DNA from: a virus
Taxonomy: Duplodnaviria > Heunggongvirae > Uroviricota > Caudoviricetes
DNA length: 41,609 nt
Reading direction: 5' to 3' (one strand)
IMG/VR virus record: IMGVR_UViG_2939152649_000003
This document shows positions 1 to 34,364 of the stretch, in pieces; the first letter of the stretch is position 1, and the number at the start of each line of letters is the position of its first letter. The position numbers and the translations under genes were made by a program. The notes beneath the pieces are model-generated. The model was not told the DNA's origin and made no database searches. It saw only the letters and a list, made by a program, of their open reading frames with translations.

Positions 1-549
1 TCAGCTAGCTGGAAACTTTTTATACAGAGTTGAGAGCCCTACTCCATACGTTTTTGATACGCTTTGTCGTGATTCACCGGTTGCCATCCGCTCCCCCATT
101 TCCCGCCATTGCTCATCCGTGAACTTAGGCCTGCGACCACCAACTCGCCCTTTTGCCCTGGCTACGGCCAGCCCTGCTAAGGTACGTTCGCTATTAAGAT
201 CAGATTCATATTGTGCTGCGGAAAGGATGTTACGAAAGTTATAGCGGCCGCTGGCTGTTTTGAGATCCACGCCATCGGTAATACTGCGGAAGTTGATACC
301 CTTTTCCTGTAACTGCTGGAACATCAACAGCGCATGCAGAACGTTGCGGCCTATCCTGTCCAGCTTCCAGACCACCAGTTCATCCCCCGGCTGCATAGTG
401 GCGATCAGCCGTTTTAGAACCGGCCGATTCGATTTCCTCCCGCTGGCATGCTCTTCAAAAATTTTCTCACAACCCGCTGACTTGAGCGCCGTTAGTTGCA
501 ATTCAGTGTCCTGGTGGTTTGTTGATACTCGGGCATAACCGTAAATCAT
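1..549 (-). CDS. pin: Serine DNA invertase (Gin/Pin/Hin/Cin family)
   Basis: 182-aa product begins MIYGYARVSTNHQDTELQ (resolvase catalytic Ser motif) and ends with an HTH (SRQSVSKTYGVGLSTLYKK); strongly resembles Gin/Pin. ATG at 549 follows an AGGAGA RBS. The ORF-track start at 594 is an upstream extension. Confidence 0.9.
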   Translation of the reverse strand: MIYGYARVSTNHQDTELQLTALKSAGCEKIFEEHASGRKSNRPVLKRLIATMQPGDELVVWKLDRIGRNVLHALLMFQQLQEKGINFRSITDGVDLKTASGRYNFRNILSAAQYESDLNSERTLAGLAVARAKGRVGGRRPKFTDEQWREMGERMATGESRQSVSKTYGVGLSTLYKKFPAS

Positions 550-608
550 GGGATTTCTCCTGTTATGAAAACAGGAGAAACGGCGAAGCATCACCAGATT
601 TTTGATGG

Positions 609-634
609 TTATAAAAAAGGTTGGTTTGGGAGAG
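609..634. repeat. Invertase crossover site, left (gix/hix-like): TTATAAAAAAGG-TT-GGTTTGGGAGAG
   Basis: 26-bp site with AAACC/GGTTT-type half sites around a central TT dinucleotide. It is the imperfect inverted copy of the site at 2156..2181. Confidence 0.6.
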
Positions 635-970
635 GGAGCAAAATTAGGCGCAGCGGTGTGTGTGACCGGCTCTACAGGCTATATGACTATCCCGGCAATG
701 GTCGCCGGGAAAGAACGGGTGATCATATTGCAGTGGTTTGGTGCTGCTACAACTGATTATGTGACACCAGTAACTGCGAATTTCCCTATTGCATTCCCAA
801 ATGAGTGCATGATTCCGTTATTTAGTGATGTATCAACTGGGGCAGTTGATTTGAGTTCTACAGCCGCATATAGCTTAGCGGTGGGCCGATCATACTATAC
901 GACGGTAACAAGAACTCAGATTACATGTGCTGGCTACGGTGGCTTTAGAGTTTTCGCGATTGGATGGTGA
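623..970 (+). CDS. Alternative tail-fibre C-terminal variable segment (silent in this orientation; no N-terminus of its own)
   Basis: Open frame from the left crossover site to TGA at 968..970. Shares the FPIAFP motif with the expressed variable segment. The upstream M at 602 lies outside the invertible segment. Confidence 0.5.
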
Positions 971-975
971 TTAAT

Positions 976-1395
976 ATGTTTTATTCTGCAAAAGAAAATG
1001 CGTTCTACGCTGATGAGCTAAAAAGTATTTATGAAAATGCAGGTAGCTGGCCTGACGATGCCGTTGAAGTAGACTATTCCGTATTCGTTGAGTTTGCCGG
1101 AGAATCACCTAACGGAAAATTACGCGCTCCTAATTCTGATGGTTTACCTGAATGGATAGATATTCCCGAACCAACTGAAGAGGAAATTATTGCGTTGGCA
1201 GAAGCCGAAAAATCGCGACTGCGTGCTTCAGCTGACTCTGAAATAGAATGGCGGCAGGACGCCGTTGATGCGGGGATCGCGACGGAAGAAGAAACTGTTT
1301 CATTAGCCGAATGGAAAAAATACCGGGTGCTGCTGATGCGAGTTGATACAGCAGACCCGGACTGGCCTACTCCTCCGGCGACTCAGGCCAGTTGA
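976..1395 (+). CDS. Tail fibre assembly protein (alternative copy)
   Basis: [28 protein letters not shown]... is a paralogue of the minus-strand copy ([30 protein letters not shown]). Start is coupled to the stop of the alternative fibre segment. Confidence 0.7.
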
Positions 1396-1798
1396 TATCT
1401 GGTGCGCTGGATATGTCCACAGATTCCAGCGCATCGAGATAATCCAGCCACTCGTTATACTGGGCCTTCTCGTCGTCTGTAAGTCGCCCCAGCGCAGCTT
1501 TACCCGGCCACTGCTTGCTGTTTATATACTCATTAGCCTGATCGATACGATACTGTTTTTCAGCTTCAGCTGCTGCGATTTCCTCCTCATGGCTTAAAGG
1601 TGGAATGTCTACCCATGCCGGCATTCCATCCTCAGTAGCTCCACGAGTTTTACCCTCTGGTGGCATCCCCGAATATTCAGTGAATGTCTCATCTGAGACG
1701 GCTATGAGATCGTCAGGCCAGTTTCTACTCGCTTCATAAACATCTCTGAGCTCATCAGGGTAGAAAGCGTTATTTAATGCTGAATAAAAATAAGCCAT
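1367..1798 (-). CDS. Tail fibre assembly protein (expressed orientation)
   Basis: 143-aa Tfa-like product directly downstream of the fibre gene. Its 3' end overlaps the alternative copy convergently by 29 bp. Confidence 0.75.
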
Positions 1799-1801
1799 TT
1801 A

Positions 1802-2437
1802 TTAATACCCCACAGCAAAATAGTTAAACCCGCCAGCGCCGATGGATGATTCAGCGTAGGTTCCTGTCTGATAAGCGCGTAGCTGGAAATTAGTTCTCGT
1901 AAAATCCTGGGCGGTTAACGCAAAACCTTGACCTGTACCCCCAACACTCTGGTCTGTTGCAACAACACATAGCGCCCTGGTTGGAAACGCAATCGGGAAT
2001 GATACTGTTTCTGGGGATGTTCTCGTTATGGCTATTGCCCATTGAAGAATTAACCCGCCTGGCAGGTATTGATACCCCGAATCGGCTCGCTGATTACCAA
2101 ATGAAGACATGTCCGGAATCTGTCCGGAACCAGTGCCAACATTTTTTTTTGCCGCATCTCCTAAACCAAGGTTTGTGGTAATCGCTGTCGCCAGCTTTGC
2201 CACCAGTCCATCAACGTCACCATCATCGAGCGCGTCCAGTTCGGCGTTCGCGATAAACTGCCCCAGTACAGCCGCCATCGTCGACGGTTGGCGCAGCGCT
2301 TTACTGACCTGTGCGCTGGATGCTTTACCCGAGGAGAATCCTTTCTTCAGTGCGGTTAGCGTCTCCCATTCCTCCTGCGAGGTAACATTTGCATTAGCAT
2401 CTGTCGCAAACGCTTTAAAATCATTAGTTCCAGCCAT
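1802..2437 (-). CDS. Tail fibre protein (constant N-terminus fused to invertible C-terminus)
   Basis: ATG at 2437 overlaps the upstream stop (TAATG coupling) and follows a GGGGGAG RBS. Gly/Ala-rich fibre-like sequence. The crossover site sits in the middle. The ORF-track start at 2455 is a possible alternative. Confidence 0.7.
   Translation of the reverse strand: MAGTNDFKAFATDANANVTSQEEWETLTALKKGFSSGKASSAQVSKALRQPSTMAAVLGQFIANAELDALDDGDVDGLVAKLATAITTNLGLGDAAKKNVGTGSGQIPDMSSFGNQRADSGYQYLPGGLILQWAIAITRTSPETVSFPIAFPTRALCVVATDQSVGGTGQGFALTAQDFTRTNFQLRAYQTGTYAESSIGAGGFNYFAVGY
2156..2181. repeat. Invertase crossover site, right (gix/hix-like): ATCTCCTAAACC-AA-GGTTTGTGGTAA
   Basis: Contains the hix-like core AAACCAAGGTTT. 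Its reverse complement aligns with the left site (GGTTTrGGAGA half sites) and has the same central dinucleotide. It lies inside the tail-fibre coding sequence at ...ITTNLGLGD. Confidence 0.65.
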
Positions 2438-4669: not shown

Positions 4670-5323
4670 TTACCCTCCCAGTGGTTTCGTATTGCTGCCG
4701 CCGACTTCCACGCCGCCATGCGTATGCTTATCAACCATGGAGCCATCCACCAGCTGCAGGCGGCCGTCAGGCAGAATTTTCAGACCGTTAAGGTTGAAGC
4801 CTCCCGGCGCGGTTCCCGTTATCGCTCCGGATGAAGGGTTAAGGCTCAGTTTTGTTCCACCGTCGTCACTGCGCAGTTCAACCGCACTGGTACTGATGCT
4901 GCTGATTTTCTGCGCCTGCGACTGCGGACCCACAATGGCAAACGCATCACTCAGGTCATGCTGGCGCGGGTCAACCGGTTCCTGCACCCCGCCGCTCTGC
5001 CACCAGAAGTCGATGCAGCGATCGGAGAAGACCAGGAGGCACTCGTCACCGGCCTTTACCGGGAAGGTTAACGTGCAGCCACCGCCGCGGGGGAACACCA
5101 CTGGAACGTCTGGCAAAATCGGTATCTCCTCAGAAACCAGAGCGCCATCGTCGCTGAGCCGCTGACCGTAGATGGCTGGCTGCACGGTGCATGTCACTGT
5201 TTCAGGGTCAAAGGACTGGATGATCCCCGGCAAAGCCACGCGCAGGCTGCCGAAAATGGCGTGGCGGTGCGCCTCAAGAGTCTGCGATTCGTTGCCGTCC
5301 TGCGCGCGGGCTGATACTGGCAT
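4670..5323 (-). CDS. Baseplate assembly protein V-like (spike/hub)
   Basis: Likely start MPVSARAQ at 5323 with a GGAGAAA RBS. The ORF-track start at 5371 would read through the upstream terminator hairpin. Gly-rich C-terminus with HTHGG. Confidence 0.6.
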   Translation of the reverse strand: MPVSARAQDGNESQTLEAHRHAIFGSLRVALPGIIQSFDPETVTCTVQPAIYGQRLSDDGALVSEEIPILPDVPVVFPRGGGCTLTFPVKAGDECLLVFSDRCIDFWWQSGGVQEPVDPRQHDLSDAFAIVGPQSQAQKISSISTSAVELRSDDGGTKLSLNPSSGAITGTAPGGFNLNGLKILPDGRLQLVDGSMVDKHTHGGVEVGGSNTKPLGG

Positions 5324-5334
5324 AGCTTTCTCCA

Positions 5335-5362
5335 GGTAATAAAAAACCCGCCGAGGCGGGTT
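5335..5362 (-). terminator. Intrinsic terminator (minus strand) closing the moron block
   Basis: Minus strand reads AACCCGC-CTCG-GCGGGTT followed by TTTTTTATTACC, immediately upstream of the gene V RBS. Confidence 0.45.
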
Positions 5363-5541
5363 ACTGATCAAATGTCAGGATTTGAGGGTGAGTTAATGCG
5401 TGCTATTTATCTTCATTGCAGCTCTTAATATAGGTTTTGCTTAGAACCACGGTAACGTCGTGATTTGTAGCAAGATACAGGCTGCTAAGGAAAAGCCGGT
5501 AGGCAATTTTTAGCTTCTCTCGATAGGGGCCTGAAACCTTT

Positions 5542-5787
5542 ATGCCAAAATCAGAAACAACCATAAAATTTACTCCAGCTATTTGGAAAGAGTTACTTCC
5601 TGTAATCCAGGATAACATACCCGCTAATGACTATGTAGTAAGTAAAAGAGTCAGAACGGGTGATTCTCCTGGCGCTATTGGCACAATTCTCGAAATATCT
5701 ATTACCGTTATCACATCATCACCAGCTTGTATCGCCATTGCATCGATAGCGAGAAAATGGTTACAGACCAGATCATCAAAAAAATAA
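5542..5787 (+). CDS. Hypothetical protein (AT-rich moron); the -1 frame continues open to 5891
   Basis: 81-aa ORF ending ...SSKK at an A7 run (5778..5784) followed by TAA. The -1 frame stays open for 35 more codons and stops just before a plus-strand terminator. Minus-strand ORFs 5403..5618 and 5631..5822 overlap it and are read as antisense shadows. Confidence 0.35.
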   Translation: MPKSETTIKFTPAIWKELLPVIQDNIPANDYVVSKRVRTGDSPGAIGTILEISITVITSSPACIAIASIARKWLQTRSSKK

Positions 5788-5895
5788 CGGTAACCACTGA
5801 AAAAGGTACGATCGAAATACAAAATCTGACATCAAAGGTGCTTTCAGAAGTACTGGAGCAGTACAAAATTATAAGTTTTAAAGACGAGTAACTGA

Positions 5896-5922
5896 GCGCC
5901 GGTAGTTCCGGCGCCTTTATTA
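5896..5922 (+). terminator. Intrinsic terminator (plus strand)
   Basis: GCGCCGG-TAGTT-CCGGCGC followed by CTTTATT, 5 bp after the stop of the -1-frame extension. Confidence 0.45.
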
Positions 5923-5924
5923 AA

Positions 5925-6281
5925 TCACTTAGCCTTCACGCAGTCGTAAGTTCCAAACACTCGAGGTTCATTCATGTTCATTCTGATGGCCTCGGCATTG
6001 AGTATCCCTCTCCCATTGCGTTTTATATAATCAAGACCATAGCGCTGCCCAGAATTCTCATTCATGACAATCCATTGCATTTTAATATTGTCATAATCTC
6101 CCTCTTTTTTGAGGAATGTCACCTTCTGACTATCAGGCTTTGCTCCGTTTATCCTCGGATATCCGTCGTTGCTTGATGAGGTTGAGAAAGTAAAGGGACC
6201 ACACTTCATATAAGCGGTGTTTGCCGCTGTAGAAGAAAAACTGACGAATGCTAAAGAAACCAAAAAAAGTATTTTTTTCAT
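5925..6281 (-). CDS. Secreted hypothetical protein (moron with signal peptide)
   Basis: N-terminus MKKILFLVSLAFVSFSSTAA is a typical Sec signal peptide. AT-rich codon usage unlike the flanking baseplate genes. ATGA start/stop overlap with the upstream gene. Confidence 0.6.
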   Translation of the reverse strand: MKKILFLVSLAFVSFSSTAANTAYMKCGPFTFSTSSSNDGYPRINGAKPDSQKVTFLKKEGDYDNIKMQWIVMNENSGQRYGLDYIKRNGRGILNAEAIRMNMNEPRVFGTYDCVKAK

Positions 6282-7348
6282 TGTGGAGCCGTTCGCTGTA
6301 GGGCCGTATTCGATTGTAAATCACGCGCCCCTCTGGCCATACACATGAGATCCATATACCACGGATTCCCTCTCGTATCGCCGGTGTAGCTGATTGACTG
6401 AACTATGTAAACGCCATCAGTTGCCACACTGGCGGGCTGCGCAAGCGTCGCGCTGCCTGTACTAAGATTACCATTATCATTTGCCTCAGTAATCCTTGCC
6501 TGTGATCTTTGGATCTCATCGTTCGGTAATTGCGAGCGATACACCGAGTCCTGGTTCAACTGAATAAGCCCGTTAACCCGAATGTTTGGATTAATGAGAC
6601 AGCGCACATTAACGCCTGCCCCCATGGTTTGCTGAGGCATACCGACCAGGCCAGTTTTGGTGTTAAGCACGATCGCTTCATGGAGATATTTATTCTCAGG
6701 CACCATTTGCAGCTGGCCGTCGACAAATTGCCAGTTAGCCTCGCACTGCGCCGCTAGGTTGCTCATGTAGTCGCGCGTTGCGCCGAAGAAGACGCGACCG
6801 CGTGGCATCACCCTGTCAGGGAACTGCCCGGTGATGCCCTGGGTGATGCCGTAAGGCGAAAAGTCCTTCATCAGAAGTGTATGCACGTCGGCAAGCTTAT
6901 ATCCTGCCGCCAGGCTGCCGGACGATACGGCTTCGTTGAACGCCTTATGACCATCTACCGACTGAATTAGCGTAAAAATATCGGTAGGATTATCGCGCCC
7001 GGTTATCGTAAAACGAATCTCCCCATCAAAAATGACTCCGTAATTTTGCCCGCGCGTCTGGCCGGTTTGCTCAGATGAAATCTCGGTAACCTGCCCAACC
7101 TCGCTTTCAGTAACCGTCGGCGCCAGGCCGTTATAACCGGCTATGATGGTAATGCGAGAAAACTCATCCCCCGTAATCCGGGTGATTGTGTCACGCTTGA
7201 GGTTGTAAATTTTAAGCGTCGCCACACGTGGCCACATCGAGTTAAACCAGTCGATTGCGAAGGTAACTTTAAAGTCCGACAGGGATATGCCATTCCCCTT
7301 GTCGTTCAGAAGCCGCAGTTCAAAATGGCGATTCCAGTTAATAGTCAT
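6278..7348 (-). CDS. Tail/baseplate hub-like protein
   Basis: 356-aa ORF in the baseplate cluster downstream of the tape measure gene. Assigned by position and size only. Confidence 0.45.
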   Translation of the reverse strand: MTINWNRHFELRLLNDKGNGISLSDFKVTFAIDWFNSMWPRVATLKIYNLKRDTITRITGDEFSRITIIAGYNGLAPTVTESEVGQVTEISSEQTGQTRGQNYGVIFDGEIRFTITGRDNPTDIFTLIQSVDGHKAFNEAVSSGSLAAGYKLADVHTLLMKDFSPYGITQGITGQFPDRVMPRGRVFFGATRDYMSNLAAQCEANWQFVDGQLQMVPENKYLHEAIVLNTKTGLVGMPQQTMGAGVNVRCLINPNIRVNGLIQLNQDSVYRSQLPNDEIQRSQARITEANDNGNLSTGSATLAQPASVATDGVYIVQSISYTGDTRGNPWYMDLMCMARGARDLQSNTALQRTAPQ

Positions 7349-7657: not shown

Positions 7658-8232
7658 TATCCCCTCGCAAAATCGGCTATCTTTTGAATTACAGATGAGC
7701 TGCTGGTCGGCACCAGAGATTTCATCCCTGTATTCTGTACTGGCGCGGTGCTGACTCCCTCCTGCATGTTGGCCTTATCCGTAACAGTGATGCTCTGCGT
7801 ATCCGACATGATCACTTCCCGCAGCGTCAGAACGCATGACAGCACATTTTCGCTGGTTCGGTCCGTCGTGGCCTCGATAGCGCGTATCAGCATATTGCTG
7901 TAGGTGCGCTTGCCGGTAACAACATCAAACGGCACCCGGGATTTCTGCAGATCCAGCAACTGCTGATAAATCTCCCTTGGGCTCTCGCCAACCCGCAAGC
8001 CTATGCTGGACAGATTTACCAGGTCGAGTACCGACCCGCCGCCGGCAAACCCGCACTCCATAGTGACCTCGCTGGCGCGCTTATAGGCGTGGTCGTTTAT
8101 GGCGGCGCCAAACTCCACCGGATGTTCAGTGATTTCCAGGGCATCAACATGCTTCTCCGACACCACCACGTCAGGTACAAAAATACCTATTTTCCGAGAC
8201 TGCAGCCGGAAGATGACCGATAAAATATCCAT
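7657..8232 (-). CDS. Tail-associated protein (distal tail/baseplate)
   Basis: 191-aa ORF. Its ATG overlaps the tape-measure stop (ATGA). Confidence 0.45.
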   Translation of the reverse strand: MDILSVIFRLQSRKIGIFVPDVVVSEKHVDALEITEHPVEFGAAINDHAYKRASEVTMECGFAGGGSVLDLVNLSSIGLRVGESPREIYQQLLDLQKSRVPFDVVTGKRTYSNMLIRAIEATTDRTSENVLSCVLTLREVIMSDTQSITVTDKANMQEGVSTAPVQNTGMKSLVPTSSSSVIQKIADFARG

Positions 8233-10211
8233 CAGTAGACCCTCGGTTGTAGCTGCTGAGTAAGACGGGAATTAACGCCGGATTGACGATCGGCAACCTC
8301 CCGGCCAGTGGATGCCGGGTCGCTCGCGCCGTAAATATTGATGTTCGTTTCCTGGCTGATCTGCGCGGCTGCCTGCGTAGCGGCAACGCTGGCCAATGGG
8401 GAATTCCACTGACCGTAACCTTCCTTCCTGGACATGGCCTGCAGAAGGTTGCTGAACTGCTGCGGGTCGCTCAGGTTCAGCGTGTCCTTAGCGCCCACGC
8501 CCATCATATTGGCTACGAAGTTCGAATAGGCCTCGGGGTCGTTGTTGTCGCTGGCAGGTGCGTATTTGTGGATGATGTCCCATATTGACTGGAGTTTTTC
8601 ATACCCGGCGGCCGCGCTTTTTCCGGTGAAATAAAGACGGATCTGCCTGGCCATTGCCATCCAACCATCAAGCGGCGTCTGATGAGAGGTAAAACCGGTG
8701 CCGCCGACGGGGCGCAGGTTGCCAGGATTGTTGTTACGGTCGGCCAGCGTCTTGCCCGGGCCGCTCTCCTGCTGGTCTGAGCCGCCCTCTTCTTTGCCGA
8801 AAATCCACCCGTTTATTGTTTTCCCGATGCTTCGCGGGTCGAACCCCGTCTTGCCCTCTATCCAGTCAGCAGTATTGTTAGCGCTGTCAGATACTGCAGG
8901 TAGAGCATCCTGGCCTTGCCCTTGTGCCAGCAGGTTCTTGCCGATCGCATAAGCATCTTTCCAACGCCCCTCGTTGATGGCGTTTATCAGGTCGCCAATC
9001 ATCTTAATCATCTTGCCAAACTCACCGAACTGCTTAGTGAGGTTGTCGATGTCGCCTTTAAGGGTCCAGTTTTTGAGGTTGATATTGAGCAGCTTTGCGA
9101 TTTCAACCCCTATCGCCTTCACAGAATCCCGCAGCTCGCCAAGCGATTTCAGGGCAGCCTCTATTTCTGGCTCCCATTTATCCCAGGGCAGCAGGCTTTG
9201 ACCGCCTTCTTTCCAGGTTTTGTAGTCGTCGTAAAGCGCGAACAGCGCCGAGCCTAGCGCGATTACGATACCTATCGGCGATTTGAGGAACTCAGCGTTA
9301 AGCAGCTGCCACGCCGAAACCAGCCCGGACACCAGCATGATTAGCTGCTGTATATCCGGCGGCAGCTTTTTAAACCACTCAATCAGGCCGCCTACCGCCT
9401 GCGAGACGCGCCACGCCATCTGGGTAATGACATCAGCAGCAAAGAGCACCCCCTTCACTATCTTCGTGACCACGCCCTCTATCTTCGGCCAGTTCTCCAG
9501 CATCTGCTTGCTGAGATTGTTCAGCGTGCCGCTCAGGCCGCCGGCCAGATTCGAGCCAACCTTATCGCGCAAGATCCCCAGTAGCGAAACGAAGTTGCGC
9601 ATTGAGGTCATGAACTTGTTGGACTGCTGCGCGGCCCTGTCAGCATCGAAGCCTGTCTTCTGCATCATCGACTGGTATTCAGCCGTGAAGCCGGACATTC
9701 CTCGCCGCATTGCCATCAGCGTGTTTTCGTCAATGCCCAGCATCTGCGCGAACTGATTGGCTCGATAATAGGGCATGCTGCTGAGGCGCTGGCCGACGCC
9801 GGTGAAGATAGCCGACATGTCGCGCATCTGTCCGGAAGCGTCCCGGGTCTGCACCCCCAGGCGGTTCAGGAAGCCTTCGGCGCCGGGATTGCTGCGCATG
9901 AAGCGCGCCAGGCTCTCCAGTGAGTTCTGGGCAGCCTCGGCGCTGGAGCCGGTTTGTGAGGCAGCATAGCCAAGCGCCTTGATGCCGTTGACCGATGCCC
10001 CGGTGCGTTCCGCGGCCCAGTAGAGTTTATCAAGGCCGCTGGCGATCGAGGCGGTGAAGCCCACAATGGCCAGCCCCGTCGACTCAACTATGGCCCCCAG
10101 TTTTACGACGTTCGCGGCCACACCTTTGAGCGTGGCTTCAAACTTCGCCTGGCCCGCGCCGTCGATATCGAACCCCAGAGAGACCAGGTAATCACGGATA
10201 GTATCAGCCAT
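8232..10211 (-). CDS. Tail tape measure protein
   Basis: 659-aa, Ala/Gly/Leu-rich, helical-looking product between the chaperone and baseplate genes. GGAGAG RBS. Confidence 0.75.
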   Translation of the reverse strand: MADTIRDYLVSLGFDIDGAGQAKFEATLKGVAANVVKLGAIVESTGLAIVGFTASIASGLDKLYWAAERTGASVNGIKALGYAASQTGSSAEAAQNSLESLARFMRSNPGAEGFLNRLGVQTRDASGQMRDMSAIFTGVGQRLSSMPYYRANQFAQMLGIDENTLMAMRRGMSGFTAEYQSMMQKTGFDADRAAQQSNKFMTSMRNFVSLLGILRDKVGSNLAGGLSGTLNNLSKQMLENWPKIEGVVTKIVKGVLFAADVITQMAWRVSQAVGGLIEWFKKLPPDIQQLIMLVSGLVSAWQLLNAEFLKSPIGIVIALGSALFALYDDYKTWKEGGQSLLPWDKWEPEIEAALKSLGELRDSVKAIGVEIAKLLNINLKNWTLKGDIDNLTKQFGEFGKMIKMIGDLINAINEGRWKDAYAIGKNLLAQGQGQDALPAVSDSANNTADWIEGKTGFDPRSIGKTINGWIFGKEEGGSDQQESGPGKTLADRNNNPGNLRPVGGTGFTSHQTPLDGWMAMARQIRLYFTGKSAAAGYEKLQSIWDIIHKYAPASDNNDPEAYSNFVANMMGVGAKDTLNLSDPQQFSNLLQAMSRKEGYGQWNSPLASVAATQAAAQISQETNINIYGASDPASTGREVADRQSGVNSRLTQQLQPRVY

Positions 10212-23306: not shown

Positions 23307-23583
23307 CCGCAACAGCCACTTTGATATCTGCCTGGGCTCTCTGTGACTCCAGTGCGATCTTGTTCTTTGCATTCTGGTTCGCCTCTGAAATGGCGTTGAT
23401 GATACTCACGGCCCGAATCACGTTCGCGGTGACAGCATTCGCGGTCTCAGCCTGCTGTTCTGCGCTATCGGCCCGCTCCTTTTCGCTACTGGCTTTGTCG
23501 CTGTAATACCATGCCGACCAGCACGCCCCGCCGAACAGGCAAAGGAGGAATATGGCAATCGCAATGATGTGACGAGCTTTCAT
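23191..23583 (-). CDS. Inner-membrane spanin (Rz-like)
   Basis: N-terminal TM helix (IIAIAIFLLCLFGGACW) followed by a coiled-coil region. ATGA overlap with the endolysin stop. Confidence 0.65.
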   Translation of the reverse strand: MKARHIIAIAIFLLCLFGGACWSAWYYSDKASSEKERADSAEQQAETANAVTANVIRAVSIINAISEANQNAKNKIALESQRAQADIKVAVADDDCARRPVPAAAANRLREYADSLRAGAGGAPAGEPDS

Positions 23584-24838: not shown

Positions 24839-25669
24839 TTATCGAGTTATTGCTCGCAGTTGCGATTCGGCCCACGCTTCTTCCATGTCGAATTTGGTGA
24901 TCAGCCGGTCGTAAAACGGCTTCACTGACTTTTTCCAGGTGTCCAGAGTAATGGCGTCGGTAATAAGGCAAACAGCCGCATATGCCTCAGTCGAGGGGAT
25001 CCGCTCATACCCGCGCCCGCCGCAGCGCTTGCAGTCGGCCATCACCGGCGCGCCCTGCTTTTCTGTCAGCGTCTTGCTGACAGCTTTTCCGCGCCCCTGG
25101 CAGTCATTACATGCGCAGCTGACGACCTTCTTCCCTTTGCAGGCCGAGCACAGCACCCGGGCCACCTCTTTCACCTCACGCCGATTCTGATGCTGCGAAG
25201 GGATAACCTTCAGCCCCCATTTTTTTGATTTTTGAATGATGTCTTTTGCGCAGCCAGAGATGCTGGTTTTCATACTAAAAACGTCAGCCTCAATGAACCC
25301 CTGCCCTGCGCAACATTCGCACCTCTTGACGCTGGCGGCGCTGCGGGAATAGTCCTCAAAAGCGAAGGTAGCAAGCTGGCGCATCACCAGCGGTTTAACC
25401 CCAGCGTCCAGTTTGCGCAGGGCAGCCACGCTATCGCATTTTGTCAGCGCATACTGGGCCAGCAGCTCGATCGCTCTCTCCCGATCGTTGTTGCTGATGC
25501 CCATCTTTCCGAGAAAGGCACTGTAGCCCATGGCGGCGCGTTCCTGGGTCATGCCCATGGCTGCCATGATGTCCGTTCCGGTCAGCGAGTCGGAGGCCGT
25601 AGCGCGCGGAGAGTCGCTAATCAGCGTCGATTTGGCGAAGTGGTATTTCACGGTGTTTTCGAGGTTCAT
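24839..25669 (-). CDS. Late-gene antiterminator Q
   Basis: 276-aa product with Cys-rich zinc-binding motifs, immediately upstream of the PR'-like region and lysis cassette. Start overlaps the ylcG-like stop. Confidence 0.7.
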   Translation of the reverse strand: MNLENTVKYHFAKSTLISDSPRATASDSLTGTDIMAAMGMTQERAAMGYSAFLGKMGISNNDRERAIELLAQYALTKCDSVAALRKLDAGVKPLVMRQLATFAFEDYSRSAASVKRCECCAGQGFIEADVFSMKTSISGCAKDIIQKSKKWGLKVIPSQHQNRREVKEVARVLCSACKGKKVVSCACNDCQGRGKAVSKTLTEKQGAPVMADCKRCGGRGYERIPSTEAYAAVCLITDAITLDTWKKSVKPFYDRLITKFDMEEAWAESQLRAITR

Positions 25670-25806
25670 GCAGCAGCTCCTGCCAACTGGTTAATGCGAA
25701 TAAAATTGCGAAGAATGCGGTAGTCCACCAGCACCGAACCCGGGCGGCGATAAATGCGGAGGCGTGTCCAGCGCATGCGGATTACCTCAATCAGTTCTGA
25801 TGTCAT
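25666..25806 (-). CDS. YlcG-like small protein
   Basis: 46-aa [27 protein letters not shown]... found by translation; below the ORF-track cutoff. ATGA-coupled to both RusA and Q, as in the DLP12 rusA-ylcG-Q order. Confidence 0.5.
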
Positions 25807-27294: not shown

Positions 27295-27543
27295 TCAGAC
27301 CGTTGATTTCATATTATCAGAAGGTTGGGTTACCCGGTAGCCGAGACGGTTAATAAACTGCATAAAACCATTAGGAGTAAAGACCTCTTCATCATCCAGC
27401 AAAGGCCGCATAGAAACCATGCCATTGACGCGATAAATTAGATGCCTGCCCGATGAAGGAAAGCTAAACACCACGCAGCCGTCAGACCTTCTTACAATGT
27501 CATACCAGTTGTCTTCTGACGTTTGCAAAGCTGAATCACTCAC
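27295..27543 (-). CDS. Hypothetical protein
   Basis: 82-aa ORF between DinI and the nin genes. Confidence 0.4.
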   Translation of the reverse strand: MSDSALQTSEDNWYDIVRRSDGCVVFSFPSSGRHLIYRVNGMVSMRPLLDDEEVFTPNGFMQFINRLGYRVTQPSDNMKSTV

Positions 27544-27660
27544 ATTTATGTTCTCCCTTCGAGCGACTAACAGACGCGATTAAAGATTGTCGGCAGCAGC
27601 ATCAGAGGGTTACGCAAATTGCGGTATTCTGAAAAATGCGCGCCAGCCTTAAGCGCAATT

Positions 27661-27894
27661 CTAATAAAACCAGTCGTCAGCGCTTTCCCAGGTATCCTGG
27701 AGGATTGATTCAATTTTCTTTTTATCGTCCTTGTCACCACCAAAAACACTTAACCCATCGGCCCCGGCACGGCGGATTGTGAGCCTGCAATTGTCATAGT
27801 GATCATTCAGGCGCTTAAGCAGTTCTTTCTCCAGTGCTGGTACTGCGCCTTTAGGAAGTTCTTTCATGCGATCAATGGTTAATTCAACTTTCAC
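27661..27894 (-). CDS. dinI: DinI-like SOS-inducible protein
   Basis: VKVELTIDRMKELPKGAVPAL...ILQDTWESADDWFY aligns along its length with E. coli DinI as recalled. GTG start at 27894 behind a GGGGG RBS. Confidence 0.85.
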   Translation of the reverse strand: MKVELTIDRMKELPKGAVPALEKELLKRLNDHYDNCRLTIRRAGADGLSVFGGDKDDKKKIESILQDTWESADDWFY

Positions 27895-27912
27895 AATGGC
27901 CCCCATTGCACG

Positions 27913-27932
27913 TACTGTGTTTTTATACAGTA
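27913..27932. promoter_or_regulatory. LexA (SOS) box TACTGTGTTTTTATACAGTA
   Basis: Matches CTG-N10-CAG with palindromic TACTG...CAGTA ends, 19 bp upstream of the dinI-like start. Confidence 0.7.
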
Positions 27933-27992
27933 TACCTATGCGCGGAAATGATCAACGTTTTAAGAGCACAAATTGTTAATTTTCTGTCAGTA

Positions 27993-28022
27993 GTAAAAAA
28001 AGAAAACCCGCCGTAGCGGGTT
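27993..28022 (-). terminator. Intrinsic terminator (minus strand) at the accessory-island boundary
   Basis: AACCCGC-CGTA-GCGGGTT with UUCUUUUUUUACUA downstream on the minus strand. Confidence 0.5.
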
Positions 28023-28373
28023 GAATTAGCAGTGTTATATTAAGCGGCAATTTCTTTCTGCCGGCACAATCCCGAGAGATTCGCCCTCTGTATCGCATCA
28101 TCAATGAGCACCTGTATGACCATGAGGCAAAGCGTTATCCAACTTGCATTCATCTTTTTCAATCAGCAAAGGAGTGGTTAGTGCTGTGAGTGGGCTTTGT
28201 TCACTTCATGGTAGATAAATCAGCTATGGATAAGTGATAAGAGGTGAAATCAATCCGAATTAACAACCTGAAGCACATTAATCGGAACACAGATATTAAA
28301 ATCCTAAAGTCTAGTAACAAATAGCCGATATGAGATATTGCTTATCAGTTTAAAAATCATCTATTGAAAAAAT

Positions 28374-28380
28374 GGGGGGG
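28374..28380. repeat. Homopolymeric G7 tract at the 5' end of ORF 28386..28991
   Basis: ATG at 28372 runs into GGGGGG. With G7 that ATG is out of frame and stops after 5 codons; G8 would put it in frame with the 201-aa ORF. Confidence 0.9.
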
Positions 28381-28385
28381 AGGCG

Positions 28386-28991
28386 TTGAAGCGAGTAGAG
28401 CGCGATTTTATCTGTCTGTTTAATTGTGTGTGGTATCAAGATTTCCCTGTGTTCAAAGGTGAATATATCAACCGTTCCAACTGGACCATTCATGTTGGCC
28501 TGGTCATGCGCGAGTGTGCAAAGTTAATGGGCGCAAGAACATTTTTTGAACAAGGCGGGCGTACCGATGCGGTCCTACAATATCCAGACAATCAAATTTT
28601 AACCTATGTTGAGTGGGAGTATAATCAGGCAGACAGAGATAGCGTTAACGAGTTAGACAAACTGCTTGAAAAAAACGACAAGTGCTATTTCTCCACATTC
28701 ATCTCATATTGTCAGCATGAAAACATCAATATTGTTATTGAAAAAGCAAGTAGAATATGGAGTGAAGCAAGCAGGCCTTTGATTTTTTTTCTTATCACCT
28801 ATGAGCCTCAAACGAAAAAACGCCGCCATTTTTTAGAACTCAGAACTTATTTTTTCTCAAACGGCAAAAGAAAACTAGTTCGCAAACAACCTGCGCTTCC
28901 ATGGGATATTGAGCAACGAAATACAATGTCGAAGAAGATGCAGGATAGAAGAGACATAAGGTTTTCACGACAGTCTCGTTTCGAGCCCTAA
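28386..28991 (+). CDS. Hypothetical 201-aa protein (AT-rich accessory gene)
   Basis: ORF beginning at TTG 28386. Contains YPDNQILTYVEWEY and IVIEK, faintly reminiscent of a PD-(D/E)xK nuclease core. Confidence 0.5.
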   Translation: MKRVERDFICLFNCVWYQDFPVFKGEYINRSNWTIHVGLVMRECAKLMGARTFFEQGGRTDAVLQYPDNQILTYVEWEYNQADRDSVNELDKLLEKNDKCYFSTFISYCQHENINIVIEKASRIWSEASRPLIFFLITYEPQTKKRRHFLELRTYFFSNGKRKLVRKQPALPWDIEQRNTMSKKMQDRRDIRFSRQSRFEP

Positions 28992-29171
28992 CTAAAATAT
29001 TCTGTTCGGAGCAACCAAATAGCTCTGGCTTTGCTGTGACCATGTTCGCGGTACCAACGCCTCTCTAGGTCCGCTTCTCGCTCATGGTGGACCAAAATCA
29101 AATCTAAAATGACGTGGCTAAGCGGGAGTACATAGTGAATGACAGGATGCTCCGGGCAGCACCATACTAAT

Positions 29172-29369
29172 TCAGTTCCCGTCAGAGGTAGGCGTTGCTT
29201 CATGATGGGATGAGCGCTCCCTCCAGACAATCCATGCGACAGCCGCCTCCCATGATATATATCCATTACCGCCATTTTTCGCTCTGCGGAGATTAACTGC
29301 ATCACCAAACCTTTCAATGATGAATTTTTCAAATTCTATGCGTTTTTCTTCGTCGATTGTTGAATCCAT
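29172..29369 (-). CDS. Hypothetical small protein
   Basis: 65-aa ORF MDSTIDEEKRIEFEKFIIERFGDAVNLRRAKNGGNGYISWEAAVAWIVW... Preferred over the overlapping 28988..29332 ORF; low certainty. Confidence 0.3.
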   Translation of the reverse strand: MDSTIDEEKRIEFEKFIIERFGDAVNLRRAKNGGNGYISWEAAVAWIVWRERSSHHEATPTSDGN

Positions 29370-29648
29370 ACCTTCCCCAGAAGAGTCCTACGAATCGCTC
29401 TTATTGCATAAAAAATAGCATATACAATAGAGAGTGAAAAACCGACGTAGCGGGTTAACTTTATGTTACTCATGAGTCTTGTCTCGCTGCGACTTAAAAG
29501 CGGAACATTCTCGCGCAAGTTGCGTTGCTAAAGCTACGGGGTTGAATGGCTCTCCATGCCCATTTAAGAAGGCATGCGGTGTGTAGTTGAACGTTATTTA
29601 AAACACAGATAGAATCAAGAAAAATCCTAAATAAATGGAATATTGTTT

Positions 29649-30029
29649 ATGGCTAAGAAAATCGCATTACTGGGCTTTTCTGCTCTTTTTGTTGCAAGTG
29701 TTGCTTTTGCTGAAACGACAAGTAACTGGGTTGAGGTTACTACAGCTGATGATGGCATTTTTTCAGCAAAAAAAGGCACATTTAGAAATGTAAAAGGTGA
29801 TTCATCTGCCTTGTTCATGTATCAAACAAAAAATAAAAAAGTAGAGTACTACAAAGTTAGTATTAAAGATGCCGACTGTGATAGTGGATATGGGGAGATA
29901 AGATTCTTCTATATGGATGGGAAATTAGCTTTCAAAGGTGATTATGTTGCTGATGGGAACAGTGTTGGCGCAGGTATTGGTGATTTTATGTGTGGGGTCA
30001 GAATTGGACTTAACACACAAAAAAGTTAA
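29649..30029 (+). CDS. Secreted hypothetical protein
   Basis: MAKKIALLGFSALFVASVAFA-ETTSN is a typical signal peptide with an AFA-E cleavage site. AT-rich gene. Confidence 0.6.
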   Translation: MAKKIALLGFSALFVASVAFAETTSNWVEVTTADDGIFSAKKGTFRNVKGDSSALFMYQTKNKKVEYYKVSIKDADCDSGYGEIRFFYMDGKLAFKGDYVADGNSVGAGIGDFMCGVRIGLNTQKS

Positions 30030-30069
30030 ATGAGGGGCATTTGTTAAAAAACAATAGCCCCACATTAGA

Positions 30070-30272: not shown

Positions 30273-30444
30273 GTTATGCCTCGCTGTTATCTGGGGTGAT
30301 GATTAGCAGCTTCCAGATGGCTGAGACATACATAGCCTGATGTTTCGCATCGACTAGGGCATTATGCATGTCACCTTCAAACGGCATGTCCCGAGTTCTC
30401 CCTTTTCGCCGCTTTCGCGTCGCATATTCTCCAAACGGTATTTA

Positions 30445-33628: not shown

Positions 33629-34018
33629 ATGAGAAAAGAAGAACCCAACCTCGTTCTGGTGGAGCGCCTTACTGAGATCACTGATCGCGGCGTTACCAAA
33701 GCAGACATGGCAAGAATAGCTGGAGTCACCCCTCAGGCCGTAAACGGCTGGTTCAAAAAAGGCGTGATTAGTAAGAAATCGGCACTGGCCATAGCCGACG
33801 CTGTTGGTATTTCTGTCGCCTGGCTACTCGGTGAAGACGTTGGGGAGAAAGACGGTCTCAAACCGGACGAACAGCGTTTGCTCGAGCTCTACCGCCAGTT
33901 ACCGGAAGAAGAGCAGCAGAACATGCTCCGCATTTTTGCGCTTCGCCTGAAAGAGTTAGATGAGCTGTACGAGAAGTACATGAAGGGTCGGATTCGATCG
34001 CAAGGTGAGCAAACCTAA
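33629..34018 (+). CDS. DicA-like phage repressor (HTH, no peptidase domain)
   Basis: 130-aa product with an N-terminal HTH (ITDRGVTKADMARIAGVTPQAVNGWFKKG). The C-terminus (LKPDEQRLLELYRQLPEEEQQNMLRIFALRLKELDELYEKYMKGR) parallels DicA as recalled. ATG sits directly after the third operator. Confidence 0.75.
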   Translation: MRKEEPNLVLVERLTEITDRGVTKADMARIAGVTPQAVNGWFKKGVISKKSALAIADAVGISVAWLLGEDVGEKDGLKPDEQRLLELYRQLPEEEQQNMLRIFALRLKELDELYEKYMKGRIRSQGEQT

Positions 34019-34082
34019 ACCAGTAGTATCTAATTCCATGTAATAAAAATATTTCAAGATTTAATATCTTCTGGAGGATTCG

Positions 34083-34364
34083 GTGTCTAAAGAAACAACC
34101 GTCGAACTTATGCATCTTAATGATGTAATCGAAGCGAAAAATTTCATCGAGACCAATGCTGACGGTGTCGTAACAATCGGCACACAAAATGCCGGTTACG
34201 AAGTTTACAATTTTGTGTTCCTGAATAGCAGCCCGATCATCGGTACGGATAATGCGGATATAGTCGTCAAGGGCATGCAGCGAACCAAAGTTGTGTCTGT
34301 GACTTTAAGCAAACAAAAGGCTTATGATTTTTATCAATCCTTAAAAAGTATGTTTGAGGAATAA
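34083..34364 (+). CDS. Hypothetical protein A (immunity-operon accessory gene)
   Basis: 93-aa ORF with a GTG start 5 nt after a GGAGG RBS. AT-rich, co-oriented and 64 bp downstream of the repressor. Confidence 0.6.
   Translation: MSKETTVELMHLNDVIEAKNFIETNADGVVTIGTQNAGYEVYNFVFLNSSPIIGTDNADIVVKGMQRTKVVSVTLSKQKAYDFYQSLKSMFEE

What the first reader, a model, noticed from the sequence alone, without database searches (positions are those of the whole stretch)
5372..6281. AT-rich moron block inserted between baseplate genes, with a secreted protein and its own terminators
A signal-peptide protein gene (5925..6281), a convergent plus-strand ORF ending at a plus-strand terminator (5896..5922) and a minus-strand terminator (5335..5362) sit inside the baseplate operon with very different base composition. 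Such lysogen-expressed cargo often encodes exclusion or virulence functions; a secreted protein could act on incoming phage or at the cell envelope.
Basis: partly seen in the sequence, partly recalled or inferred. Interest (0 to 1): 0.5.

Follow-up and report, generated by a model that had tools for sequence, protein, structure and literature searches.

The report
Broken pore-toxin cassette in prophage baseplate
The AT-rich block in this E. coli prophage's baseplate operon has two parts: a conserved exported phage protein of unknown function, and next to it a swappable two-gene cassette encoding a membrane-pore "suicide" toxin (EACC1 family) and a tiny unannotated partner protein, with the toxin gene broken by a one-base deletion in this copy.

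Summary
Window 5372..6281 is 40% G+C against 53% overall. It holds the signal-peptide gene (5925..6281, -), a plus-strand ORF that ends at a hairpin terminator (5896..5922), and a minus-strand terminator (5335..5362).

1. **The secreted protein** (phrog_3443) is not inserted cargo. In about 40 Enterobacterales prophages its start lies within -11 to +12 nt of the baseplate-hub stop codon, whatever follows it. It is predicted to be a periplasmic, disulfide-stapled small beta-barrel. Its function is unknown.

2. **The real moron** sits in a hypervariable slot between that gene and the spike gene. It is a head-to-head cassette of an EACC1-like gene (5542.., +) and a 53-aa gene not annotated here (5564..5403, -). 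Each gene has its own terminator. The two always occur together and never with a protease.

3. **The EACC1 gene in this window is frameshifted** (A8 to A7 at 5778..5784). This tract mutates repeatedly in other copies.

EACC1 proteins are protease-activated pore-forming abortive-infection effectors. I infer a lysogen-expressed latent toxin kept in check by its N-terminal domain, the small partner, or both. In strain ES7 it is probably switched off. I class it as a new variant of a known kind, of moderate interest.

The parts
6278..7348 (-). Baseplate hub gene (356 aa). This is context: the upstream late gene whose stop codon overlaps the start of the secreted-protein gene.
   Evidence: phrog_196 'baseplate hub' at 3.8e-83. 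Pfam E217_GP41 and NCBIfam orf58_phage_fam.
5925..6281 (-). 'sec': 118-aa exported protein of family phrog_3443. It has a Sec signal peptide, two invariant cysteines (C27, C114) and a predicted 7-8-stranded small beta-barrel. It is conserved across the phage lineage and translationally coupled to the hub gene (ATGA overlap).
   Evidence: The family is small: 58 representatives among 1.84 billion proteins.
5896..5922 (+). Intrinsic terminator of the EACC1-like gene. It fills the 33-nt gap between the two convergent stop codons.
   Evidence: A hairpin is kept at this position in seven loci folded, with different sequences and a compensatory GCGCCGG/CCGGCGC to GTGCCGG/CCGGCAC change.
5542..5891 (+). 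EACC1-like gene, 116 aa when intact. In this window a 1-nt deletion splits it into 5542..5787 (81 aa) and a remainder in the -1 frame that ends at 5891.
   Evidence: The intact orthologue scores 29.1 bits against Pfam PF19953 (cut-off 23.6). PGAP names it EACC1 in strains Res13 and COL60J. The alignment shows A8 against A7.
5778..5784 (+). Poly-A tract (A7 here, A8 in intact alleles). This is the frameshift site and a recurrent mutation hotspot.
   Evidence: The intact allele is on 175 contigs, the A7 allele on 6 and an A9 allele on 1. A fourth, independent +1 frameshift occurs in L070.
5403..5564 (-). 'small53': a 53-aa gene not annotated in this strain. It lies head-to-head with the EACC1-like gene, and the two start regions overlap by 23 nt. 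A GGAG ribosome-binding site sits 8 nt upstream of its ATG.
   Evidence: An open frame with an ATG or GTG start is found in all 10 loci examined in detail. Substitutions fall 24:6:5 at codon positions 3:1:2 outside the overlap. The exact protein is on 344 contigs. It occurs only together with EACC1.
5364..5379 (-). Conserved 16-nt motif CCTGACATTTGATCAG (contains GATC), between the small53 stop codon and its terminator. It marks the cassette boundary; its role is unknown.
   Evidence: It matches exactly in most EACC1 cassettes examined (21 of 27 distinct loci), including all four of the most diverged ones (28-32% EACC1 identity), and in one locus with different cargo (L021).
5335..5362 (-). 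Intrinsic terminator of small53. It would also stop any minus-strand transcript that is not antiterminated. It ends about 7 nt before the spike gene's ribosome-binding site.
   Evidence: An ACCCGC..GCGGGT stem plus U6-8 is present at the same place in all 9 loci folded.
4670..5323 (-). Membrane-puncturing spike gene (217 aa). This is context: the downstream late gene.
   Evidence: Pfam spike N-terminal domain at 1.8e-43 plus the GpV Apex motif. PGAP annotation.

Best explanation
The block has two layers.

**Layer 1: the secreted protein.** It is a conserved late gene of this lineage of SEN34/Mulock-like temperate myoviruses. It is translated together with the baseplate hub and exported to the periplasm, where it should fold into a disulfide-stapled beta-barrel of about 95 aa. 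Its role is unknown. My best guess, held weakly, is that it acts on the envelope or on incoming tail tips, giving self-exclusion or superinfection exclusion.

**Layer 2: the true moron.** Between that gene and the spike gene lies a cargo hotspot. In this phage it holds a two-gene, head-to-head, terminator-flanked cassette made of an EACC1-like protein and a 53-aa partner. Experimentally, EACC1 proteins are latent pore-formers: removing an N-terminal autoinhibitory domain lets the C-terminal part, which includes the transmembrane helix, oligomerise and permeabilise the membrane.

**Inferred mechanism.**
- The lysogen makes the latent EACC1-like protein from its own promoter.
- An infection-linked event releases the pore-former and the cell dies before the invader matures (abortive infection). 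That event could be cleavage at the invariant Asp41-Ser42 linker by a protease supplied in trans, or loss of the small partner.
- During the prophage's own lytic growth, Q-antiterminated late transcription runs antisense through the toxin gene and sense through small53. This should silence or neutralise the toxin.

**State in this window.** The toxin gene carries a -1 frameshift, so the cassette is probably inactive (OFF) in strain ES7.

**Shown:** the anatomy, the conservation, family membership by profile score, the absence of a protease, the frameshift, and that small53 is protein-coding.
**Inferred:** expression in the lysogen, toxicity, the trigger, the role of small53, and any anti-phage effect.
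For: - **Prophage context.** The window is a complete prophage of E. coli ES7 and carries a Q-type antiterminator gene.
- **sec is syntenic.** It follows the hub gene in 44 of 44 loci. Spacers run from -11 to +12 nt in all but two of the 41 loci that could be measured (+26 in L018; L043 is a mis-call).
- **Cargo hotspot.** The sec-to-spike gap ranges from 62 to 1942 nt, has mean G+C 0.41 and holds more than 30 unrelated gene families.
- **EACC1 membership.** The intact orthologue scores 29.1 bits against PF19953, above the 23.6 cut-off. The AF2 model (pLDDT 74) shows a beta-alpha-beta N-domain, a low-confidence linker at 38-48, then beta, a helix at 61-77 and beta-beta-alpha-beta. This matches the published description of EACC1.
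- **Invariant linker residues.** T39-x-D41-S/A is invariant in 21 sequences, and D-S is kept in relatives of 28-32% identity.
- **Fixed position, no protease.** All 32 EACC1-like loci examined sit in the same slot on the antisense strand, and none has a protease gene between the hub and spike genes.
- **small53.** It codes for protein and co-occurs strictly with EACC1.
- **Terminators.** Both are conserved as structures.
- **Frameshift.**
- **Published function.** EACC1 is a pore-former activated by caspase-like cleavage near Asp49 (bioRxiv 10.1101/2025.11.14.688446). It was first described as a two-gene conflict system (PMC7159879).
Against: - No promoter for either cassette gene could be identified convincingly (and manual inspection).
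- The EACC1-like gene has no obvious Shine-Dalgarno sequence.
- The family-defining caspase partner is absent, so the trigger is unknown. The invariant Asp could be structural rather than a cleavage site.
- PADLOC has no model that recognises these proteins.
- small53 has no detectable homology to anything, including the EACC1 N-terminal domain.
- The Pfam score is only modestly above the cut-off, and one orthologue sits exactly on it (23.6).
- The copy in this window is broken, and frameshift alleles recur. This could mean the gene is dispensable or costly.
Confidence: 0.6

Rival explanations
1. The whole block is one moron whose key product is the secreted protein, made in the lysogen to exclude phages or to act as a virulence or envelope factor. 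The two terminators insulate it.
For: The signal peptide is real and the region is AT-rich. G+C of sec is below that of its neighbours in most loci (0.47 against 0.53-0.56). One genome has three tandem sec paralogues (L027), which suggests arms-race diversification. There are precedents for exclusion genes inside tail operons: HK97 gp15 and lambda lom (from my own knowledge).
Against: sec is translationally coupled to the hub gene in about 40 loci and is present regardless of cargo, including loci with no cargo. The terminators belong to small53 and EACC1. No promoter for sec was found. It has no lipobox.
Confidence: 0.12
2. The small53/EACC1 pair is a toxin-antitoxin-type addiction module. 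It stabilises the prophage, or simply persists selfishly in the hotspot, and has no anti-phage role. small53, or the antisense RNA created by the overlapping 5' ends, acts as the antitoxin.
For: The two always occur together, with start regions overlapping head-to-head by 23 nt, so each mRNA must be antisense to the other's 5' end. The toxin is a membrane-active small protein, as in type I toxin-antitoxin systems. Toxin-inactivating frameshifts recur while small53 stays intact.
Against: EACC1 proteins studied so far are autoinhibited and need cleavage, so an antitoxin would be redundant. The invariant D-S linker argues that proteolytic control is retained. Toxin-antitoxin and abortive-infection roles do not exclude each other.
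Confidence: 0.2
3. The EACC1-like protein is an accessory holin or lysis-timing factor used by the phage itself.
For: It is a small membrane-pore protein encoded in a phage late region.
Against: The gene is antisense to the late operon. The prophage already has a holin, an endolysin and Rz/Rz1-type genes. The cassette is found in only about 1 in 10 related prophages (4 of 44) and in no deposited phage genome. Frameshift alleles circulate.
Confidence: 0.04
4. In this strain the cassette is only a decaying remnant. The frameshifted toxin gene is a pseudogene and the block has no current function. This is compatible with the main explanation for the family as a whole.
For: The -1 frameshift removes the C-terminal beta-beta-alpha-beta region. 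There is one further missense difference from intact alleles (E to V). PGAP marks two other genes of this prophage as partial.
Against: small53, both terminators and sec are intact and identical to those of prophages with the intact allele. An A7 tract followed by a stop codon could be bypassed at a low level by -1 ribosomal slippage or by transcriptional slippage, and can revert. The same 81-aa allele is found in at least 6 assemblies.
Confidence: 0.35

Closest known systems
EACC1-caspase two-gene conflict/defence system (Kaur, Burroughs, Iyer & Aravind 2020, eLife, PMC7159879; Evans et al. 2025, bioRxiv 10.1101/2025.11.14.688446)
   Same: Both are proteins of about 115 aa that match Pfam PF19953. 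Both have a central helix rich in small residues (here TSSPACIAIASI), alpha+beta extensions at each end, and a flexible linker containing an Asp roughly 40-50 residues in. The published protein is cleaved near Asp49; here Asp41 is invariant.
   Different: No caspase-like or other protease gene lies between the hub and spike genes in any of the 32 loci. The partner is instead a 53-aa protein encoded head-to-head. The genes are carried by a prophage, inside a baseplate operon. This clade is confined to Enterobacterales, whereas the classical system is mainly actinobacterial and found in multicellular bacteria.
Morons of lambdoid phages (the concept of Juhala and Hendrix; examples include lambda bor and lom, and HK97 gp15)
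   Same: It is an AT-rich insertion between two late genes that are adjacent in relatives. It has its own terminators, and the host phage uses Q antitermination to read through them.
   Different: It is a divergent two-gene unit transcribed partly antisense to the operon. Promoters are not shown.
Variable defence hotspots in prophage genomes (for example the P2/P4 hotspots; general survey in bioRxiv 10.1101/2024.10.15.618418)
   Same: The flanks are fixed (sec and spike), while the contents are highly diverse, AT-rich and often defence- or toxin-like.
   Different: The hotspot lies in the middle of the baseplate gene cluster of a different phage lineage. Whether it had been catalogued before was not checked.
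Type I toxin-antitoxin loci with overlapping divergent transcripts (tisB/istR, zor/orz and similar; from my own knowledge)
   Same: Both involve a small membrane-active toxin, and the partner's 5' end is antisense to the toxin's 5' end.
   Different: Here the antisense partner clearly codes for a conserved protein. The toxin belongs to a family that is autoinhibited and activated by proteolysis.
Periplasmic superinfection-exclusion proteins such as T4 Spackle (comparison for the secreted protein only; from my own knowledge)
   Same: Both are small, Sec-exported phage proteins. This one is encoded next to the genes of the tail-tip complex.
   Different: There is no sequence or fold similarity (Spackle is helical; this is a beta-barrel). 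The gene here is in the late operon. Its function is untested.

Membership tests
EACC1 (Pfam PF19953) | Profile score at or above the curated gathering threshold (23.6 bits) | tested here: met
   The intact orthologue (Res13, 99% identical at the DNA level) scores 29.1 bits. The CX12 allele scores 23.6. The truncated 81-aa ORF in the window scores only 16.1, as expected from the frameshift.
EACC1 (Pfam PF19953) | A single conserved hydrophobic helix with a central patch of small residues, flanked by alpha+beta elements | tested here: met
   The segment TSSPACIAIASI is invariant or nearly so. The AF2 model has a helix at 61-77, with strands and helices on both sides (pLDDT 74).
EACC1 (Pfam PF19953) | An adjacent 3' gene encoding a caspase-superfamily (or other) protease | tested here: not met
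   The gene is followed directly by a terminator and then the convergent sec gene. No protease gene lies between the hub and spike genes in any of the 32 loci.
EACC1 (Pfam PF19953) | Activation by site-specific cleavage that removes the N-terminal autoinhibitory domain, followed by pore formation by the C-terminal fragment | not testable with these tools
   The only support is indirect: D41-S42 is invariant within the low-confidence linker at 38-48.
Moron (Hendrix-type) | Inserted between two genes that are adjacent in related phages | tested here: met
   For the small53/EACC1 cassette this holds: sec and spike are 62-64 nt apart in L009 and L025. It does not hold for sec, which is present in all 44 loci.
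Moron (Hendrix-type) | Its own terminator or terminators | tested here: met
Moron (Hendrix-type) | Its own promoter, active in the lysogen | tested here: inconclusive
   The consensus scan finds nothing suitably placed. The candidate regions lie inside the partner gene's coding sequence, so their conservation says nothing about promoters.
Moron (Hendrix-type) | Base composition different from the flanking genes | tested here: met
   G+C is 0.37-0.41 in the block, against 0.52 for the hub gene and 0.60 for the spike gene.
Bacterial lipoprotein exclusion factors (Cor, Llp, Bor type) | A lipobox L-[AS]-[GA]-C at the end of the signal peptide | tested here: not met
   Signal peptides in the family end in A-x-A. 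The first Cys is preceded by Q or K (…ADSQCG, …YMKCG), as seen.
Virion structural protein of the baseplate | No export signal, and presence in virions | tested here: not met
   Every homologue has a cleavable Sec-type signal peptide of variable sequence. Presence in virions cannot be tested here.

The most novel reading that the evidence does not exclude
This would be a protease-independent form of the EACC1 pore-former. The strictly co-occurring 53-aa protein, together with the mutual antisense overlap of the two 5' ends, would replace the caspase as the gate. That would make a new toxin/partner abortive-infection module that the prophage switches off during its own lytic cycle through antiterminated antisense late transcription. 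Alternatively, it could be the missing effector for the 'effector-less' caspase-like defence proteases reported in E. coli. Independently of either idea, the conserved periplasmic beta-barrel encoded next to the hub gene would be a new kind of exclusion factor that targets the tail tip.
Probability: 0.2. Interest if true: 0.75.

Novelty: new variant of a known kind. Interest (0 to 1): 0.5.

Why it matters
EACC1 was shown only recently to be a caspase-licensed pore-forming death effector. Here a whole clade lives in enterobacterial prophages with no protease and with a dedicated 53-aa partner instead. This raises the question of how such an effector is triggered.

It also gives a genetically tractable E. 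coli system for testing that question: intact and naturally frameshifted alleles exist in otherwise identical prophages.

Two further results follow. The analysis defines a cargo hotspot inside the baseplate operon of a widespread lineage of temperate myoviruses. It also singles out a conserved exported protein of unknown function that is co-translated with the hub. If nothing comes of the mechanism, the finding is still a well-annotated but ordinary moron.

Tried and rejected
- **Deposited phage genomes.** Megablast of the block against them found nothing. tblastn of the EACC1-like protein against them also found nothing.
- **Family libraries for sec.** Pfam, NCBIfam and PADLOC give nothing. 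Only PHROGs recognises it, as phrog_3443 of unknown function.
- **AlphaFold database.** The afdb50 library was not available.
- **Profile search with the sec family.** Across 1.84 billion proteins it found only 58 representatives. The three long multi-repeat hits are low-complexity artefacts according to Pfam.
- **Fold of the EACC1-like model.** It has no meaningful match in PDB.
- **small53.** No Pfam or PHROGs family matches it. I tested whether it is a free-standing copy of the EACC1 N-terminal autoinhibitory domain, since both look beta-alpha-beta. hhalign gives probability 0.1, so sequence gives no support.
- **sec as an inhibitor of the tape-measure lysin domain.** Rejected as unlikely, because that domain differs between relatives (SLT in CX12 and L053, none detected here) while sec is conserved.
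- **Programmed -1 frameshifting at A_AAA_AAA.** Considered, but intact alleles simply have one more A, so the simple reading is a mutation.
- **Sequencing error as the cause of the frameshift.** Considered unlikely as the sole cause, because the identical 81-aa product is deposited from at least 6 contigs and A9 variants also exist.
- **Promoters.** Looking for promoters conserved across the aligned loci failed, because each candidate region is coding sequence of the partner gene.
Full report
**Where we are.** The window is identical to E. coli strain ES7 chromosome NZ_CM184333.1. It spans a complete prophage of about 41 kb inserted between yciI/tonB and kch. The prophage has an integrase, a RecET region, a repressor region, a Q-type 'antitermination protein' (window about 24840..25670), a holin/lysozyme/Rz1 cassette and a myovirus structural module. 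The tail module is not Mu- or P2-like. Its proteins match a Dit-like protein, a Pam3 gp18-type plug, an E217 gp41/phrog_196 hub, a membrane-puncturing spike, a sheath initiator, baseplate J and DUF2612. Deposited relatives include Salmonella phage SEN34, Klebsiella phage Mulock (Wanchaivirus) and several Klebsiella and E. coli temperate phages.

**Checking the observation.**
- The block 5372..6281 has 40.3% G+C against 53% for the window. Only 1.7% of equally long sliding windows are as AT-rich.
- The 118-aa ORF at 5925..6281 (-) begins with a textbook Sec signal peptide.
- A 7-bp all-GC hairpin with a T-rich tail follows the plus-strand stop codon (5896..5922).
- A 7-bp hairpin followed by U6 lies on the minus strand at 5362..5335 (z = -3.5 and -2.7).
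- The bare consensus scan finds no excess of terminator-like sites (2 found, 2.4 expected). Comparative data settle the point: a hairpin, usually with a U-tract, sits at each of these two gene ends in nine or ten diverged loci. The loops differ and at least one stem change is compensatory.

**The secreted protein is not cargo.**
- Its ATG overlaps the hub stop codon (ATGA).
- A scan of one genome per species returned 44 loci, all Enterobacterales apart from one contig labelled Chryseobacterium. In each, the homologue follows the hub gene.
- The hub-stop to start spacer was measured in 41 loci. It lies between -11 and +12 nt in all but two: +26 in L018, and a mis-called start in L043. In L023 and L029 the gene that directly follows the hub is an extra lipoprotein gene, and sec lies about 600 nt further on.
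- The gene is kept even where the spike gene follows after only 62-64 nt (L009, L025).
- It is also present in 20 deposited phage genomes.
- The family is small and orphan: phrog_3443 of unknown function, 46 clusters at 90% identity and 58 representatives among 1.84 billion proteins. It has no Pfam, NCBIfam or PADLOC hit.
- All members have a variable A-x-A signal peptide, no lipobox and two invariant cysteines near the mature N and C termini.
- It is therefore a conserved, late-operon, periplasmic protein of unknown function. One genome carries three tandem paralogues (L027), and G+C of the gene is somewhat low (0.47 on average). These hint at a conflict-related role, but nothing more can be said.

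**The cargo slot.** The distance from the sec stop to the spike start varies from 62 to 1942 nt. The interval averages 41% G+C and contains more than 30 unrelated ORF families. Going by motifs in the translated sequences, not by profile searches, these include:
- a Doc/Fic-like protein with a possible antitoxin (L032);
- a 409-aa T5orf172-like protein (L013, L018);
- an HExxH protein in Klebsiella phages;
- several exported proteins.

This is a classical hypervariable hotspot with fixed flanks.

**What fills the slot here.** Strains Res13-Sevr-PER07-33 and COL60J are 99.9% identical to the window over 3.4 kb. In both, PGAP annotates a 116-aa plus-strand gene as 'effector-associated constant component EACC1'.
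- The alignment shows that the window lacks one A of an A8 run (5778..5784).
- The intact protein passes the Pfam PF19953 threshold (29.1 against 23.6 bits). The CX12 allele sits exactly on it.
- The AF2 model (pLDDT 74) has a beta-alpha-beta N-terminal domain, a low-confidence linker (38-48), a strand, a helix at 61-77 made of the invariant small-residue segment TSSPACIAIASI, and a beta-beta-alpha-beta C-terminus. This matches the published description of EACC1.
- T39-x-D41-S/A in the linker is invariant across 21 sequences. D-S persists in relatives of only 28-32% identity.
- The clade comprises about 25 clusters, all from Enterobacterales.
- In every locus inspected the gene lies in the same slot, antisense to the late operon, with no protease gene between the hub and spike genes. 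These loci are 3 E. coli genomes, 4 species-representative genomes, 3 looked-up contigs, 19 IMG/VR prophage contigs and the window itself.
- The cassette occurs in 12 of 5426 complete E. coli genomes and in no deposited phage genome.

On the minus strand, 5564..5403 encodes a 53-aa protein (MVVSDFGIKVSGPYREKLKIAYRLFLSSLYLATNHDVTVVLSKTYIKSCNEDK).
- Its ATG lies 23 nt inside the EACC1 coding sequence, so the two genes are head-to-head with overlapping starts.
- The frame is open and begins with ATG or GTG in all ten loci examined.
- Outside the overlap, substitutions between the window and the Klebsiella copy fall 24:6:5 at codon positions 3:1:2, giving 18 synonymous against 8 non-synonymous codons.
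- A GGAG box sits 8 nt upstream of the ATG (read). It is kept as GGAGG or GGTGG in the diverged copies.
- The exact protein is recorded on 344 contigs. PGAP calls it in CX12 but not in ES7.
- Among the 44 species loci it is detected only in the four that have EACC1. It is detected in 18 of the 19 viral contigs; the most diverged, L072, gave no tblastn hit.
- The minus-strand terminator lies about 40 nt after its stop codon in all nine loci folded. It is therefore this gene's terminator, and it ends about 7 nt before the spike ribosome-binding site.
- small53 matches no family. It shows no profile similarity to EACC1.

**How it most likely works.** These facts are established elsewhere. EACC1 is a latent pore-forming toxin. 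A caspase-like protease cleaves it near Asp49. The N-terminal fragment is autoinhibitory, and the C-terminal fragment oligomerises and permeabilises membranes (Evans et al.). The family was defined as the constant partner of caspase-fused proteins (Kaur et al.).

The following is inferred here.
- The lysogen produces the latent protein from a promoter inside small53.
- A trigger linked to infection frees the pore-former and aborts the infection. The trigger could be cleavage at Asp41-Ser42 by a protease supplied in trans, from the host, from another defence island or from the invader. It could also be loss of small53.
- Because the prophage uses a Q antiterminator, its own late transcripts should read through the terminator at 5362..5335. 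They would cross the toxin gene in antisense and small53 in sense. This gives the phage a built-in way to silence the cassette during its own development.

None of these steps has been tested. The absence of the family-defining protease is the main weakness.

**State of this copy.** The frameshift removes the C-terminal strands and helix, so the ES7 copy is probably inactive.
- The tract is a mutation hotspot. The intact allele is on 175 contigs, the identical A7 allele on 6 and an A9 allele on 1. A different lineage (L070) has an independent +1 change at the same place.
- small53, sec and both terminators are unchanged.
- This pattern fits a costly toxin that is repeatedly switched off. A role as a true contingency (phase-variable) locus is possible but unproven.
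- PGAP also flags two other partial genes in this prophage.

**Comparison with what is known, and novelty.**
- By profile score and architecture the protein is an EACC1-family member. It fails the neighbourhood criterion of an adjacent protease, so it should not be filed as a canonical EACC1-caspase system.
- The cassette satisfies the moron definition in position, composition and terminators. Promoters were not shown. The secreted-protein gene does not satisfy it.
- Text searches of the only experimental EACC1 paper for 'prophage', 'standalone' and 'orphan' returned nothing. That paper does report effector-less caspase-like defence proteases in E. coli, an obvious candidate partner to test.
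- I rate the finding as a new variant of a known kind. The anatomical reinterpretation is solid. The mechanism is plausible but unproven, and the copy in this window is defective.

Noticed in passing
window 5778-5784; also L070, P0131, P0132: The A8 run in the EACC1-like gene is frameshifted repeatedly and in both directions. A7 is on 6 contigs, A9 on 1, and a different allele lineage has an independent +1 change, against 175 contigs with the intact gene. This looks like a mutational on/off hotspot.
   Followed up: partly
window 5364-5379 (-); L021 4758-4773: The 16-nt motif CCTGAYATTTGAWCAG (contains GATC) lies just upstream of the small53 terminator. It is conserved even between cassettes whose proteins are only about 28% identical. 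It is also present next to a different antisense cargo gene in Serratia fonticola. Its role is unknown: it could be a cassette boundary, a recombination site or a regulatory site.
   Followed up: partly
L027 (Pseudescherichia vulneris) 629-2849: There are three additional tandem paralogues of the secreted-protein gene downstream of the primary copy (629-1000). At least one is preceded by a fragment of the 3' end of the hub gene, which suggests duplication and diversification.
   Followed up: no
L023 3413-~4000; L029 3410-~4000: An extra lipoprotein gene (lipoboxes VAGC and VTGC) is inserted between the hub gene and the secreted-protein gene in Phytobacter and Enterobacter prophages.
   Followed up: no
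L004 2544-3110; L032 4354-5195; L013 3407-4636; L007 5223-5897: Other cargo in the same slot includes an HExxH (putative metallopeptidase) protein in Klebsiella phages, a Doc/Fic-like toxin with an upstream small gene, a 409-aa T5orf172-like protein and an antisense ClpP-like protein. These assignments come from motifs in the sequences only, not from profile searches.
   Followed up: no
window 17-565 (-), 621-1426 (+), 1398-2437 (-): A recombinase (invertase-type) gene lies next to opposed sets of tail-fibre and tail-fibre-assembly genes. This looks like a Gin/Cin-like invertible host-range switch at the prophage end.
   Followed up: no
window 23311-23583 and ~30275-30394: PGAP marks a DUF2570 (i-spanin-like) gene and an exoribonuclease-domain gene as partial, so the prophage may be partly decayed.
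   Followed up: no
window ~27450-29650 and ~33790-34300: These are the other stretches of the window that are as AT-rich as the finding (G+C 0.43 or below in 910-nt windows). They lie in the early region and include plus-strand hypothetical genes at 28387..28950 and 29651..30031 (PGAP coordinates).
   Followed up: no
window 8232-10211 compared with L003 8956-11223 and L053 7775-9769: The tape-measure-like protein carries an SLT transglycosylase domain in some relatives. In this window PGAP names no domain; the C-terminal part contains an NNPGNLR-type sequence. The tail-associated lysin module therefore seems to be exchangeable.
   Followed up: no
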